Positions 1,951 through 63,437 of a DNA stretch of 64,000 nucleotides are shown here, piece after piece. The translations under genes and the position numbers were made by a program. Each line of letters starts with the position of its first letter. Positions within the stretch are counted from its first letter, which is position 1. This DNA comes from Octopus vulgaris (lineage: Eukaryota). The DNA is taken from the NCBI GenBank assembly GCA_951406725.2, contig OX597833.1, forward strand, positions 44,206,001 through 44,270,000. The letters run 5' to 3'. The notes under the pieces are model-generated. The model ran no database searches and was not told where the DNA came from. It saw only the letters and a program-made list of their open reading frames with translations.

Positions 1951-1983
1951 GTACTGAGCAGAAAGCAATCAGAGACAATGCAG
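1951..1983 (+). CDS. Linker micro-exon (33 nt, phase 1-1) of Ig-family paralog A: (G)TEQKAIRDNA
   Basis: ttatttctag|GT...GCAG|gtatct; exon and upstream intron are homologous to 34673-34635 (-). Confidence 0.7.
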
Positions 1984-2289
1984 GTATCTTTAATCTTCTA
2001 ACTTTTGCTTCTTTCAGTTACTGGATGGTGGCCATGCTGGGCTATTTTCTAATAGTCTTTGTCATACTTATTCCCGAACTGATACGTTTTGGGCACGTAA
2101 ACAAACCAACACTGGTTTTCCAGTGATGGTGGGGAACAAACACTAATGTACACATCTATACATACATGCACACGCTACACACACTCACACACACATACAT
2201 ACACACAGATACCGCGCGCACACAAATATATACACGACATTCTTGGGTCAAGCATAGACCTATGCAGGGTACCTGACACCTAGTGTGAC

Positions 2290-2800
2290 ATCAGGCGCTC
2301 ACACCTCTGTCAGCAGGGTATTGGTCCTAGTAGACGTTGCACCGAGATCATCTACTCACAATTGGTGGTGAGTAAAAGTGACAACATCCTCTAGGAATCT
2401 CTGAGTGTCAAGGAAGGCCAACTGCCCAGTCGTTTTCGAAGAAGTTTTGCGCCGGGTTCCATTGATAATTTACAAAAATCCCTTGCCTGGCAGTGCTACA
2501 GAATAACATTGCCGATTCGTAATAAAGTGTACCGGCATGATATTCCCTCAGCTGCTCTTGCCCTTGATGCACATTGCATGATGAAGATTTTCTACACGTA
2601 TTAGTATAGTGCTTGAGCATCGTTGATTTCTGGAGTTACGTCTACCAGCTGCAATCACTTCTCGGACGGATCTGGTTATAGGTCGACTCCAAAGTGAAGA
2701 TTGCTTCCTTGCATTCCTTTGATTTTGAAGGGTAGGCAGATTTCCTCCATTCAGGTGCTTATGGTGAAAGATGATGCGATTAATGAGAAAGAGACCAAAC
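2290..2800 (-). mobile_element. Old degenerate repeat in an intron, shared with the paralog locus (about 20440-21300 and 30700-31150)
   Basis: Visible nucleotide similarity, e.g. aaaatcccttgcctggcagtg vs aaaatccttcgcctggcagtg; family and strand not firmly identified. Confidence 0.35.
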
Positions 2801-3376
2801 CTTCATTGACTTCATGTTTAAAAGGAAAGTGAGCGTGGAGAGCAAGGTCCTTTCTCCCAGTAAAACTTACACTGTGGATGAATATAGCAAGAATGGCTCG
2901 AGTGAATTGTCGTAACCTAAGCGTGCCCATGTAGTTACAGCAGTACGGAGGTGAGAAAAACACAACAGTATTCCTGGTAACAGGGTGACTCAGGATTACT
3001 TGGTTACTGTGAGGTTACTTGGTTACCCTTGGGTAGCGTTTCCATTTTAATTGGGAATTTTGTTGTTTTGATTTTCTTCCCATTATTTATTGTTTACATG
3101 TGTTTATGTAAATCTCCAATATCCTTGATTACTGTTTCTGAGGCTGCGAGCTGGTAGATTCATGAGCACGCCGTAAAAAATGCTTGGCGGCATTTTGTCC
3201 GGCTTTCTGAGTTAAAATGCCACCGAAGTTGACTTTACTTTTCATTCTTTCAGAGTCAATGAATTAGGCACCAATTGAATACTGGAGTTGATGTAATCGA
3301 TGTCCACCTTCACCAAAGTTTTTGGTCTTGTACCAAAATTAAAATGAAATGTGCTTTTTTTTACTTTCTATTACAG

Positions 3377-3456
3377 ATAAATTATCTGATGCAAATATTA
3401 TTACTAAGATTTTGAAATTTGCAGCAACACTGCTTGTTATTGGCCATTTTCATTAA
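3377..3456 (+). CDS. Last coding exon of paralog A: (D)KLSDANIITKILKFAATLLVIGHFH*, hydrophobic GPI-signal-like tail
   Basis: Polypyrimidine tract + ttacag acceptor; 80 nt to TAA; same length and stop position as 21773-21852 and 30222-30143. Confidence 0.7.
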
Positions 3457-59297: not shown

Positions 59298-60450
59298 CCA
59301 AGGCTTTTGACCAAGTCAGTATAGACGACCTGTTCAAAATCCTTGCCATGATTAACTGCCCTCCAAGACTCCTCAGGATTGTCCAATCATTTAACGCAGG
59401 CATGAAAGGGGTCGATGGCTCTTTTTCGGATGCCTTGAATTTACGGAGCGGCGTGAAGCAGGGCTGTATGCTTGCCTCCTCACTCTTTGGTATCTTTGCA
59501 GTCATACTTAAACAAGTATTTGAGACATCAACTGATAGTGTCTACCTTCATACCAGATCAGACGGTAAACTGTTAAGTCTGTTGAGGCTGAAAGCAAAAT
59601 TCATGGTGCGCCATGTACGCGGCACTGACAGCGCACTCTGAAGAGCAAATGCAGCACATCGTGGACAAACTTCCAACGGCCTATCAGCAATTCAGCCTGA
59701 CAATCAGTCTGAAGATCTAAGTAATGAACTAAAGTGCCAAGTACCCACGACGACGACGATCACCATCACCATCAACAACTACAAGCTGGAAGTAGTCCAT
59801 CAATTCACCTATCCCAAATCTGCCATCGCTGATGGCCTCTCTTTGGACCCTGAGATCAACAGGCGAATCGGACGAGCATCCTCCACATTTGCAAGGCTGA
59901 CATAGAGAGTTGGGAAACAAACAAACAAAAAATACTGGCTGCAAACTTCAGGATTGCTGTCTATAAGGCGTGCATCCTTAGTACACTACTTTACAGTAGT
60001 GAGACGGGGAGCCTCTTCTCCAGACATGAACGATGTCTCAACGTCTTTTACTTTCGTAATTTGAGACGCATCTTGGATATCACGTAGACCAACTATATCA
60101 CCAACATCGAAGTCGTCAACTGAGCCAAGATGCCCAGCATACTCACCCTGCTTTATCAGCGTCGTTTGCGCTAGTTCGGTCATGTAGATCTCATGCTGGA
60201 CGGAAGGATTTCAAAAGACCTCCTGTATGGGGAATTGGCACCGGTGTAAAAGCACGAGGACGACCTCGTCTTCGTTTCCAGGACGTCTGTAAGAGGGATA
60301 TTAAGTCGCTTGATCTGGACGTGTTGAGATGGGAGGAGGTTGCAAATGACCGCCCAGACTGGAAACAAAGAGTGATGAAGCCAGCGGGAATAAAACAGGA
60401 ACTAGCTACCACTGAAAATTGAACTCGACGGAAGAAAAAAACCCAGTAGC
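59298..60450 (+). mobile_element. Degenerate RTE (BovB-like) RT fragment
   Basis: TKAFD, GVKQGCMLA, TRSDGKL, KDLLYGEL motifs. Confidence 0.85.
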
Positions 60451-60493
60451 GCTGGCAGAGAGCTCTCGACATTCTGAGAAACGATATCACTAA

Positions 60494-62843
60494 TCTCTCT
60501 CTATAAAAACCTTTTGCTTCTCTGTCTGTCTGTCTGTCTGTCTGTTCCCTATGCATTTTCAAACTGCTCGACCAAATCAAATCCAATTTTACAAGGTAAT
60601 AGTATCAGACCCCGTGAGTGTTAACATGTGATTTTTGTTTCATTTGGATTAAAACAATATAACATTGGCACTGGTTTGGTATTACGTGTCAAAATTGAAA
60701 GAATAGCATGTGACCTCGTGTGTTCCGTTGGCGATTTTTTTTCCTCTATCTTCCCTTCTCTGGATCTTTCCTTCTCCTATGTTTCCGACGAAGAGCTCCG
60801 TTCGAAACGTTAAACCCTCTTTCTTCCCTTCTTTCCTGAGCGTCCAATAATACTATATTTGTTCCACGTCCTCGCGTTGTTGTGTTTTTTTGTGTTTTCT
60901 TGTTTGGATTAACTATATATATATATATATATATATATATATATATATATATATATATATATATATATATTGTAATGTGATATAATATTGTTTCATTTTT
61001 ATTCTTTTACCTTTGATAAGACTATAATAATGTTTCACTTTTATTCTTTCACTTTCGATAAAACTAGTATATTATTTCATTTTTATTCTTTCACTTTCGA
61101 TAAAACTAGTATATTATTTCATTTTTATTCTTTCAATATTGATAAGACTATAATATTGTTTCACTTTTATTCTTTCACTTTTCATAAGACTATAATATTG
61201 TTTCACTTTTATTCTTACACTTTTAATTCTAATGTGGTTACACTAAGATTATCAGATTTCTTTTGTATTTGAAATAAATGAATAATTCATAACCTAATGT
61301 GAACAACATTAAGCATCGGCAACTTTCCGTCTTTACGGCCACGGCAATAGAATGATGTGTCAGTCTATGTGTGTTGATTGACATAACGAACGGCTGGAGG
61401 TGAAACTCTTGACAAAAAACAATGAGGTGGCAGGTCCAAGGTATATAAAAATGCACATTTACCATTCGAGTACCAGTTAATAATCATCGCAACAGTTGCA
61501 AGGTTGCAAGATATTTACAATTACAAATTAGCAATTCATACATGTGCTTCTATTTGGTAAATTTGCTTATATTTGGTTAATTTATACTGTATACAAAAAT
61601 AAAAACATACTACATACATACAACTACTTGCAAAAATAGAGATTAATGTATAATTTTTTTCTATGTTCATAATTTTTTGTTTACAATATTGAAAGATGCC
61701 ACTAAAGGAAAAACGTTATCTCTCTAGAAACAAGTATAAAGCAAGGAGGATTGTAGAAAATTGAAGGCGAGTGCTTCAAGAGAGAAGGGAGATGAGACTT
61801 TCTCAAGATCAGCAAACGCATGCTGCAGACGACAAATGCAGTCTCATGAGAGAAGGAGATGAGACTTTCCTAGTATCAACAAATGCATGCTGCAATACGT
61901 CAAATGGTGTCTTAAAAGAGAAGGGAGATGAGACTTTCTCAAGATCAGCAAGGACATGCTGCAGCACGTCAGATGTAGTTTCAATACAGACGGGAGATGA
62001 GATTTTCGCAAGATCTGCAATGGCATGCTGCAGCACTTGACGAGGAATCATTAAAACAACAATTTAATGAATAGAGAGAGCGCCAATAAAATAGCTCTCA
62101 GAAACAGATTACGTACAAATTCATTCTTTACAACTCCTGGGGCTGCTTTCAGATATGATCCATCCTATTCTTATAAAAATGATAATTTTGTCGAAATTGG
62201 TTTGATAAACTGAAATCGTCGTTTCTGCAAAGCTTTAAAATTCCCAAATGAAACTAATGGCATGCGCTGTTCGGGCGGTAAAATAAAACTGTCGGCAATA
62301 ACAGCTTCTCCTCAACCTCTTACTGATCTTCTGGAAGGCGCTTCCATCCAGTCAAAGGATTTTCCAAACAATATCAGATAATACAAATATGCATTTCAAA
62401 TAACATCGTTTGATGCATTAAAGGAGATAGTTAAACATGGATTTACGCCGACGTTCAAAGTTCAAGGGCAAGTCTATCATCTCATTTCTTTCTACTACAT
62501 TTCCTCCAAATTTACTTCGTGGGTGATGTTGGACAACAAACCCGAAGGAAGTGTCCAAACTTCAGACCACGGATCGTGTTAGACGCAGCGCCGACTGCTG
62601 CAAAGGTGAGTATATCCACTGACAGCTTTTCGGTGCGTTCAAATCTTGCATAGCCCCCACCTCAATTTCCCATGACAGGTTAGGGCTTGGGATGCTCCAA
62701 ACGGAGGCATAACATGTCACTTATTCGAGTGTTTTGTCGTCAATGCTGCACTTTCCCGAGTCACCTGTTTCAACATAACTGTAATTTATAAAAAAAAAAA
62801 TATGCCATTTTGATCCCCGAGCAACGCCGGTTTTCTCTGCTAG
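60494..62843 (+). mobile_element. Defective Helitron with RepHel N-terminal remnant, 42-bp minisatellite and nested short element
   Basis: 5' TC, 3' ccccgagcaacgccgg..CTAG; CKALKFPNETNGMRCSGGKIKL, AFQITSF, PTFKVQGQVYH at about 62130-62490. Confidence 0.82.
60982..61222. repeat. 42-bp minisatellite, about 6 copies
   Basis: 14-aa periodicity in ORF 60988-61272. Confidence 0.9.
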
Positions 62844-63437
62844 TAGTGTTTATAATTGCACAGGATGATGAGAGAAAGTGTTCACGTTCCTAAGAGTCTC
62901 GTTTGGATTATGGTAAAGTGCATATAATCCTATATTTCAGGCTGATAGATCTAGAAAATTGGCTGATCTGTAATCTGTTCCCATTGGGAGTGATAGACCA
63001 AAATTTCCAAAGGATTTAAGCATTTTCCTATACCTTTCTAGTACCGCTACACTACACCTATCAACGGAAAAGTGTTTGTTGTTCATATATATACTTATCT
63101 TTCCTTAGGAAAAGCAGATTCTAGTTGGGAAAACAAGATAGACTCTATGTACCTATAGATGAAAATTTGTTTTATTATATCTATTTAGATGTATGTGTAC
63201 GAGAGCATGTGTACACATATATTGCACACATACACACACACATTTATGTTTTCAATATCAGAATTCAATGAGTAGTAAATAGAGAAAGCACTCAATACAT
63301 AGTGTGGTGTTGAATATTTATTTCCAGGAATATGTGACATAACTGTGACTTGGAAGATTCGCTGAAGAGGTTCATCAGACAATATCCCATGAAAAAGAAA
63401 CCATTGCCAAATTAGAAAGATACTATATATGTGTGTA

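What the first reader, a model, noticed from the sequence alone, without database searches (positions are those of the whole stretch)
1951..63410. Cluster of highly divergent paralogs: candidate lineage-specific IgSF recognition locus
Seen: pieces of at least four copies in both orientations: 3' exons at 1951/3377/10766 (+), orphan Ig exon at 24882 (+), the complete gene (-), and a 3'-end unit at about 63300 (-). Ig and last coding exon lengths are conserved while protein sequence is very divergent. Inferred: birth-and-death evolution like clustered immune, allorecognition or neural-wiring Ig genes (functional analogy to Hydractinia Alr or fly Dpr/DIP, not claimed homology).
Basis: partly seen in the sequence, partly recalled or inferred. 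Interest (0 to 1): 0.8.

Follow-up and report, generated by a model that had tools for sequence, protein, structure and literature searches.

The report
Fast-evolving octopus two-Ig gene cluster
This stretch of common-octopus DNA is part of a real, spliced cluster of duplicated and partly broken genes for an uncharacterised family of two-immunoglobulin-domain proteins, found so far only in octopods, that are predicted to be lipid-anchored on the cell surface and likely act in recognition of microbes or other cells.

Summary
Observation confirmed and extended. The minus-strand gene (55418-30107, likely last exon at 28030) encodes a 286-aa protein identical to O. vulgaris CAI9737735.1. It has a signal peptide, V-type Ig, C-type Ig, linker and GPI-like tail; public contigs join exons 2-5. 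The 3' exons at 1951/3377/10766, the intact orphan Ig exon (24882-25187) and the 63.4-kb unit are paralog pieces.

Neighbouring models CAI9737731-738 hold 16 domain-1 copies (median 33% identity), and O. bimaculoides has 13. All 21 of 41 relatives that I could name are octopod. Divergence is mixed: one subfamily has six young copies.

The Ig exon is more diverged than flanking non-coding DNA (0.40 vs 0.23). Omega is about 1.6: strong purifying selection is rejected, positive selection is not proven. Domain 1 lacks the canonical Trp family-wide, and gene B also lost the core disulfide.

Function is untested. Host-microbe or self/non-self recognition is most likely (about 45%). It is not an Alr member, and Dpr/DIP or Beat membership is unsupported. 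My searches found no paper on it.

The parts
55307..55418 (-). Gene B exon 1, coding part: signal peptide (likely start at the second Met, 55355)
   Evidence: the O. bimaculoides ortholog P0007 starts at that Met
41177..41500 (-). Gene B exon 2: V-type Ig domain D1 (no C-strand Trp; F-strand Cys replaced by Phe132)
   Evidence: the loose end of the X7 contig matches this exon's 3' end
39042..39347 (-). Gene B exon 3: C-type Ig-like domain D2
   Evidence: spliced to exon 4 in contigs of X7 and X2
34635..34673 (-). Gene B exon 4: 13-aa linker
   Evidence: joint 39042-34673 with GT..AG ends
30107..30222 (-). Gene B exon 5: 26-aa hydrophobic GPI-signal-like tail, stop at 30145-30143, then a donor 36 nt later
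   Evidence: the loose end of the X7 contig matches the exon start 29/30 (read by eye)
27623..28030 (-). Gene B exon 6 (inferred): 3'-UTR exon, or alternative last coding exon
   Evidence: paralogy; an O. bimaculoides model's tail maps to the 63.4-kb paralog of this exon; splicing to it not shown here
1951..1983 (+). Copy A linker exon (11 aa)
   Evidence: same peptide in CAI9737732/733
3377..3494 (+). Copy A tail exon (26 aa, GPI-signal-like)
   Evidence: 100% match to the tail of CAI9737733.1
10766..11156 (+). Copy A last exon (exon-6 paralog)
12254..24533 (+). B': young inverted partial duplicate of gene B (matches 54455-28848). It starts inside intron 1, lacks exons 1-4 and keeps only exon 5
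   Evidence: 1.3-4.9% substitutions in 10 of 11 blocks, 8.3% in one short block
21773..21888 (+). B' copy of the tail exon, peptide identical to gene B's
24882..25187 (+). Orphan D2 exon of the A-type subfamily: intact frame and splice sites, no D1 upstream and no linker or tail exon downstream on + within the window
33678..33889 (-). Partial young copy of exon 6 (96% identical to 27966-27755) inside gene B intron 4
62969..63415 (-). Copy C last exon (exon-6 paralog) of the next minus-strand gene; the homologous acceptor AG is changed

Best explanation
The window is the tail-to-tail junction of two arrays of a tandem octopus gene family whose members encode a signal peptide, a V-type and a C-type Ig domain and a predicted GPI-anchor tail, and these proteins likely act as rapidly diversifying cell-surface recognition molecules at a host-microbe or self/non-self interface. 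Shown: gene structure, splicing of exons 2-5, copy number, gene fragments and fast ectodomain divergence. Predicted: Ig folds, a D-E disulfide in D1, a D1-D2 disulfide (C124-C208) that would stiffen the rod, and GPI anchoring. Inferred: ligand binding through the D1 front face (C, C', C'', F, G and their loops), where young paralogs differ most; soluble forms made by skipping exon 5; and signalling, if any, through a partner such as the transmembrane family member on another chromosome, since cluster members have no cytoplasmic tail. New copies arise by segmental and inverted duplication and die by deletion.
For: Gene model equals CAI9737735.1. Spliced contigs in 2 of 4 runs laid, none in the large DNA-like run. 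AF2 pLDDT 86.8 and 94.4. D1 matches antibody and TCR V domains at Z 11.8, rmsd 2.1-2.4, about 100 aligned. D2 matches SIRP-gamma D2 at Z 10.6 and VCAM-1 D2 at Z 9.6, tied with non-IgSF sandwiches. A hydrophobic stretch ends 2-4 aa before the C-terminus in 14 of 16 chosen tails; the other 2 are transmembrane. 16 D1 copies in CAI9737731-736 and 738, 13 in O. bimaculoides. The bimaculoides ortholog is 63-64% identical in the Ig domains against 88% in the tail, for a split of about 34 My (PMC10700109, passages). D2 codon positions 1+2 differ at 80/202 against 275/1205 non-coding sites (Fisher p 1e-6); ML omega is 1.6 and omega <=0.7 is rejected. Variable sites among 5 young D1 copies: 22/52 in front-face segments against 12/57 elsewhere, p 0.023. 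Thr-rich mucin-like stalks occur in some members.
Against: There are no tissue, cell-type, infection-response, allele or binding data. Omega >1 is not significant (LRT p 0.12; NG86 1.37, 95% 0.84-2.48). One sequence of that pair is an orphan exon. The non-coding baseline is biased towards alignable blocks and allows gaps; third positions also differ at 35/101, so D2 may simply be older than homogenised 3' parts. The face enrichment is not significant for the gene B ortholog pair (22/52 vs 18/57, p 0.32) and uses strand segments, not side-chain exposure. GPI anchoring rests on hydropathy only. Several O. vulgaris models are fusions of neighbouring copies, so the counts are of domains, not genes.
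Confidence: 0.5

Rival explanations
1. The family is a neural or sensory identity code (Dpr/DIP- or Beat-like), with paralogs expressed combinatorially on neurons or sucker receptor cells and binding each other.
For: Same overall architecture as Dprs (two Ig domains, possibly GPI) and Beats (two Ig domains) (PMC10084454, passages). The ESM Atlas lists 260-300-aa arthropod Ig clusters at 0.92-0.93. Octopus has expanded other wiring families.
Against: Ortholog Ig domains are only 63-83% identical between Octopus species, and the locus is littered with dead fragments; from my own knowledge, wiring receptors are usually conserved under purifying selection. No Pfam hit for gene B. Six family gene ids were absent from 3 supplementary files of an octopus brain atlas, with one further file unreadable; this is weak evidence.
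Confidence: 0.2
2. The family acts in reproduction (sperm, spermatophore, oviduct or egg-surface recognition) and diversifies by sexual selection.
For: Fast ectodomain evolution, GPI-like tails and lineage-specific copies fit gamete-surface proteins (own knowledge).
Against: No gonad data. Dozens of paralogs are more than gamete recognition usually needs.
Confidence: 0.15
3. The cluster is a by-product of a rearrangement-prone, repeat-rich region; most copies evolve neutrally or are assembly duplicates of divergent haplotypes, and only a few act as generic adhesion proteins.
For: Omega is not distinguishable from 1. Many fragments are present. The B' deletion ends lie in (AT)n tracts. Gene B lost the core D1 disulfide. 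No genome or raw reads were available to check the junctions.
Against: B' differs from B by about 1-5%, mostly above the 1.22% heterozygosity reported for O. vulgaris, and each copy has its own insertions. Cysteines, the D2 Trp, exon lengths and frames are kept across copies that are about 30% identical. The cluster is present in three species.
Confidence: 0.15

Closest known systems
Hydractinia Alr family (allorecognition complex; PMC9546547, passages seen)
   Same: Clustered family of divergent IgSF genes mixed with pseudogenes, one exon per Ig domain, N-terminal V-set domain invisible to Pfam, extra intra-sheet disulfides. Gene B's D1 lacks both the core Trp and the core disulfide, a combination those authors knew only from Alr.
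   Different: No Fn3-like ECS, transmembrane helix or ITAM/ITIM tail in the cluster members examined; GPI-like tail instead. D2 is a seven-stranded C-type domain that keeps its Cys-Trp-Cys core. Polymorphism and homophilic binding are not shown. No homology is claimed.
Drosophila Dpr/DIP (Wirins) and Beat (PMC10084454, passages seen)
   Same: Expanded two-Ig surface proteins, possibly GPI-anchored, that could form a paralog code.
   Different: The octopus proteins get no confident Pfam Ig hit and have a distinct Cys pattern and no D1 Trp. They sit in dense arrays with dead copies and evolve far faster. No neuronal expression is shown.
Vertebrate V-C receptor clusters: CEACAM/PSG, B7/butyrophilin, SIRP, CD2/SLAM (mostly own knowledge)
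   Same: V plus C rod. BTN2A1 ectodomain TM 0.57 and VCAM-1 0.60 by target; CEACAM7 N domain Z 10.9. Tandem birth-and-death, GPI and soluble forms, and variation on the front face resemble CEACAMs.
   Different: At most 17% sequence identity to solved structures; an independent octopod expansion with no evidence of orthology.
Rabbit kappa light chain with V-C interdomain disulfide (label recalled)
   Same: Best PDB profile hit, E 8e-4, aligns the D1 E-F loop Cys and the D2 mid-domain Cys with two extra light-chain Cys.
   Different: Weak hit and likely convergent; no rearranging segments. The disulfide geometry was not measured on the model.

Membership tests
IgSF, V-set (D1) | Two-sheet sandwich with A, B, C, C', C'', D, E, F, G strands | tested here: met
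   AF2 strands; Z 11.8, rmsd 2.1-2.4 over about 100 residues to VH/VHH/TCR V domains
IgSF, V-set (D1) | B-F disulfide and D-x-x-x-Y-x-C motif | tested here: met
   Cys in 48/52 D1 sequences at both positions; Asp126 and Tyr130 invariant. Lost (Phe132) only in gene B of O. vulgaris and O. sinensis
IgSF, V-set (D1) | Core Trp on strand C | tested here: not met
   0/52; Leu in 44. Atypical V domain, as in Alr
IgSF, C1/C2-set (D2) | Seven strands, Cys-Trp-Cys core | tested here: met
   7 strands; C170 41/41, W185 41/41, C232 37/41
IgSF, C1/C2-set (D2) | C1 versus C2 assignment | tested here: inconclusive
   SIRP-gamma D2 Z 10.6, VCAM-1 D2 Z 9.6 and bacterial sandwiches Z 11.4 are tied or close; Foldseek E >=0.003
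GPI-anchored proteins | N-terminal signal peptide and C-terminal hydrophobic stretch with no cytoplasmic tail | tested here: met
   Hydropathy: the stretch ends 4 aa before the C-terminus; moderate strength (mean KD 1.7)
GPI-anchored proteins | Actual GPI attachment | not testable with these tools
   Needs a dedicated predictor or PI-PLC release
Hydractinia Alr | Ig domains + Fn3-like ECS + transmembrane helix + cytoplasmic tail | tested here: not met
   Gene B ends in a terminal hydrophobic tail right after a 13-aa linker against the architecture
Hydractinia Alr | High allelic polymorphism and allele-specific trans-homophilic binding | not testable with these tools
   No population data; no binding assay available
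Dpr/DIP/IgLON (Wirins) or Beat | Detectable sequence homology to the family | tested here: inconclusive
   All 21 named of 41 phmmer hits are octopod and 20 were not named. No profile-profile test against these families was possible. The Atlas gives only generic Ig look-alikes
Dpr/DIP/IgLON (Wirins) or Beat | Neuronal, combinatorial expression | not testable with these tools
   Runs are coded without tissue
Birth-and-death multigene cluster | Tandem paralogs, species-restricted expansions, dead copies | tested here: met
Birth-and-death multigene cluster | Positive selection (omega > 1) | tested here: inconclusive
   omega 1.6, p 0.12 against 1, one exon pair only

The most novel reading that the evidence does not exclude
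This is the octopus's undescribed diversified recognition locus: dozens of GPI-anchored and soluble V-C proteins with a tryptophan-less, disulfide-locked fold. They are under positive selection on one face, vary in copy number between individuals, and signal through one older transmembrane relative. It would be a cephalopod counterpart of Alr, CEACAM or KIR-type loci, for self-recognition (own skin and arms) or microbe sensing.
Probability: 0.15. Interest if true: 0.85.

Novelty: new member of a known kind. Interest (0 to 1): 0.55.

Why it matters
Cephalopods have no characterised diversified IgSF recognition locus that my searches found, and this family is largely invisible to Pfam, so domain-based expansion screens would miss it. 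It gives a concrete, multi-copy, fast-evolving set of predicted surface proteins that can be tested at once with existing octopus tissue and single-cell data and with ectodomain binding screens. The candidate roles are immunity, self-recognition, reproduction or wiring. It also adds a second natural V domain lacking both core Trp and disulfide. Until expression or binding is known, it remains one more lineage-specific Ig cluster.

Tried and rejected
No whole genome was held, so genome-wide copy counting and multi-sequence dN/dS could not be run; counts come from annotated proteins.

Pfam found nothing for the three Ig exons or gene B. The best member hit was PF00047 at E 2.5e-4 in 1 of 33. Single-sequence PDB search gave 0 hits.

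Homodimer prediction of residues 38-247 returned no verdict: score 0.56, one control 0.39. No RNA holder was listed by the run finder. Run X1 covered only part of exon 3.

Considered and rejected: (1) Exon 1951 as a transmembrane exon by read-through. The 58-aa frame exists in copy A but stops after a short stretch in gene B, and contigs splice at the donor. (2) The orphan exon as gene model CAI9737734.1. They differ at 2 of 51 residues and that model's D1 is not in the window. (3) Further hidden exons. Six-frame profile scans found none. (4) Protocadherin-style shared constant exons, suggested by LOC106880715 isoforms with different Ig domains. Their signal peptides and tails also differ, so they look like merged neighbours. 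A narrower face test (18/31 vs 16/78, p 2e-4) was chosen after seeing the data and is not counted.

The D2 tree is a quick, unfinished search, and four short D2 matches were dropped before it.

Literature: nine searches, including seven family LOC ids with 0 papers, found no description of this family. Subscription papers are not covered. The supplement of the skin-mucus proteome PMC11431876 could not be read and may list members. The SPLASH preprint passages showed nothing on it, and its supplements were not consulted. Four look-ups in earlier scan notes gave nothing relevant.
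Full report
What is there. The window is repeat-rich animal DNA. On the minus strand five GT-AG-bounded exons (55418-55307, 41500-41177, 39347-39042, 34673-34635, and 30222 onward) give a 286-aa protein. It is identical to Octopus vulgaris CAI9737735.1; I call it gene B. Relatives are O. sinensis LOC118766815 (99% in both Ig domains) and O. bimaculoides LOC106880715 X4 (66% overall). In run X7 one 875-nt contig covers exon 3, joins it to exon 4 at the predicted GT..AG intron, and has loose ends that I matched by eye to exon 2 (30/30) and exon 5 (29/30). 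X2 has the exon 3-4 joint too; X1 and the large DNA-like run X5 do not (2 of 4 runs). So exons 2-5 are spliced together. The tissue is unknown, and the exon 1-2 and 5-6 joints were not seen.

Copies in the window. Self-BLAST and exon scans find one exon 1, one D1 exon, two D2 exons, two linker exons, three tail exons and four last exons. Copy A (+) contributes 1951, 3377 and 10766, and its tail equals that of model CAI9737733.1. The orphan D2 at 24882-25187 is intact, has the same length as exon 3, and belongs to the A-type subfamily (87/101 to the nearest copy). The 63.4-kb unit is the last exon of the next minus-strand gene; model CAI9737736.1 ends at 60198-59989. It begins inside intron 1, lost about 14 kb with exons 2-4 between (AT)n tracts, and keeps only the tail exon. 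It differs from gene B by 1.3-4.9% in 10 of 11 blocks, mostly above the 1.22% heterozygosity reported for the species (PMC10700109, passages), and each copy has its own insertions. I read it as a young dead duplicate, but a divergent haplotype is not excluded. The window is thus the tail-to-tail junction of a plus and a minus array, with debris between.

The family. phmmer over 1.84 billion representatives gave 41 hits. All 21 that I could name are octopod, and 20 were not looked up. The named ones include consecutive O. vulgaris models CAI9737731-736 and 738, plus CAI9737148 on a contig of the same length. They also include O. bimaculoides LOC106880708/713/714/715, LOC128250265-267, LOC106878948/952 and LOC106870302 (with LOC106878953), all on a contig of one length. 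A transmembrane, tailed member lies on a different O. vulgaris contig, and another is in Argonauta. Models 731-738 contain 16 D1 copies (median 33%, range 19-99%); the bimaculoides set has 13 (median 31%). Several models fuse neighbouring copies, so these are domain counts. The D1 tree shows cross-species ortholog pairs, including gene B with the sinensis and bimaculoides genes (97/90), beside O. vulgaris-only groups: six A-type copies (100/99; 61-93% identical) and five units in model 738. Clustering at 50% could hide bimaculoides A-type copies. Restriction to octopods is provisional, because no profile search of the full library was available.

Structure. AlphaFold2 gives two beta-sandwiches (pLDDT 86.8). 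D1 matches antibody and TCR V domains (Z 11.8). D2 has seven strands and matches SIRP-gamma D2 and VCAM-1 D2, tied with unrelated sandwiches. The pair resembles butyrophilin and VCAM-1 rods. Family signature: no C-strand Trp in any of 52 D1 sequences, extra Cys at 105 (52/52), 117 and 124 (50/52 each), and a D2 Cys at 208 (34/41). I infer a D-E disulfide and a D1-D2 disulfide; the latter pair aligns with two extra Cys of the best PDB profile hit, a Fab light chain (E 8e-4), which I recall as the rabbit-kappa interdomain bond. Gene B of O. vulgaris and O. sinensis alone replaced the F-strand Cys by Phe, so its D1 lacks both core elements. The Alr paper's authors knew of no such V- or I-set domain outside Alr (PMC9546547, passages). 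Tails end in a hydrophobic stretch 2-4 residues from the C-terminus in 14 of 16 selected sequences, which suggests GPI anchoring. A bimaculoides model ends in the exon-6 paralog instead (64% over 25 aa), which suggests soluble isoforms.

Rates. Between gene B and the orphan D2, positions 1+2 differ at 80/202, while paralogous non-coding blocks differ at 275/1205 (p 1e-6). That baseline favours alignable sequence, and third positions differ at 35/101. ML omega is 1.6; values of 0.7 or less are rejected, but 1 is not (p 0.12). The bimaculoides ortholog is 63-64% identical in the Ig domains and 88% in the tail. Among five young D1 copies, variable sites are enriched in front-face segments (22/52 vs 12/57, p 0.023); the gene B ortholog pair shows no significant enrichment (p 0.32). 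The framework is conserved and the surface changes fast; positive selection is suggested, not shown.

Mechanism. Most likely these are GPI-tethered, disulfide-stiffened V-C rods that present a variable D1 face to ligands, with soluble decoy forms, in a family renewed by duplication and deletion. Speed, debris and mucin-like stalks favour a host-microbe or self/non-self role (about 45-50%) over neural or sensory wiring (20%), reproduction (15%) or near-neutral churn and assembly duplication (15%). Every functional step is inferred.

Comparison and novelty. It works like Alr, CEACAM or Dpr-type clusters in layout. It fails Alr membership on architecture, and no homology to Dpr/DIP or Beat was found (inconclusive; PMC10084454, passages). 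The proteins are annotated only as uncharacterised or Ig-like, and nine literature searches found no description; subscription papers and an unread proteome supplement may bear on this. Verdict: a real, apparently undescribed octopod IgSF family of a familiar kind; interest 0.55.

Noticed in passing
window 30145-30107 (-) and 3454-3494 (+): The stop codon lies 36-38 nt before a conserved donor, so an intron sits in the 3' UTR but within the distance that usually escapes nonsense-mediated decay (rule recalled).
   Followed up: partly
window 63415-63313 (-): The acceptor of this exon-6 paralog has lost its AG, yet the O. bimaculoides LOC106880708 tail is encoded by the homologous exon, suggesting switching between GPI and soluble forms.
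   Followed up: partly
window 60198-59989 (-): The last exon of model CAI9737736.1 is read antisense from what looks like a LINE remnant; probably an annotation artefact.
   Followed up: partly
window 1951-2127 (+): Read-through of copy A's linker exon gives a 58-aa frame with a hydrophobic stretch; not conserved in gene B.
   Followed up: yes
P0010 (CAI9737738.1): Five near-identical D1-D2-Thr-rich units in one 1202-aa model, against one unit in the O. bimaculoides relative: very recent tandem amplification or merged genes.
   Followed up: partly
P0031 and P0042: Transmembrane family members with cytoplasmic tails (tyrosine-rich in Argonauta), the O. vulgaris one on a different contig from the cluster; candidates for the ancestral or signalling member.
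   Followed up: partly
window 11723-11957, 31715-31942, 32119-32404: Palindromic MITE-like elements of 230-290 bp.
   Followed up: no
window 4591-6364 (+), 6643-9930 (-), 16400-19300, 46100-50060, 36022-37572: Decayed LINE reverse-transcriptase copies and a DNA-transposon remnant fill the introns (family labels recalled); one LINE is shared by gene B and its duplicate.
   Followed up: no
window 12360-12385 (+) and about 54350 (-): Short telomere-like TTAGGG run inside a repeat element at the left end of the inverted duplicate.
   Followed up: no
X7 contig, start of exon 5: One A-to-G difference from the window that would change Asn to Asp; allele, species difference or RNA editing cannot be told apart.
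   Followed up: no
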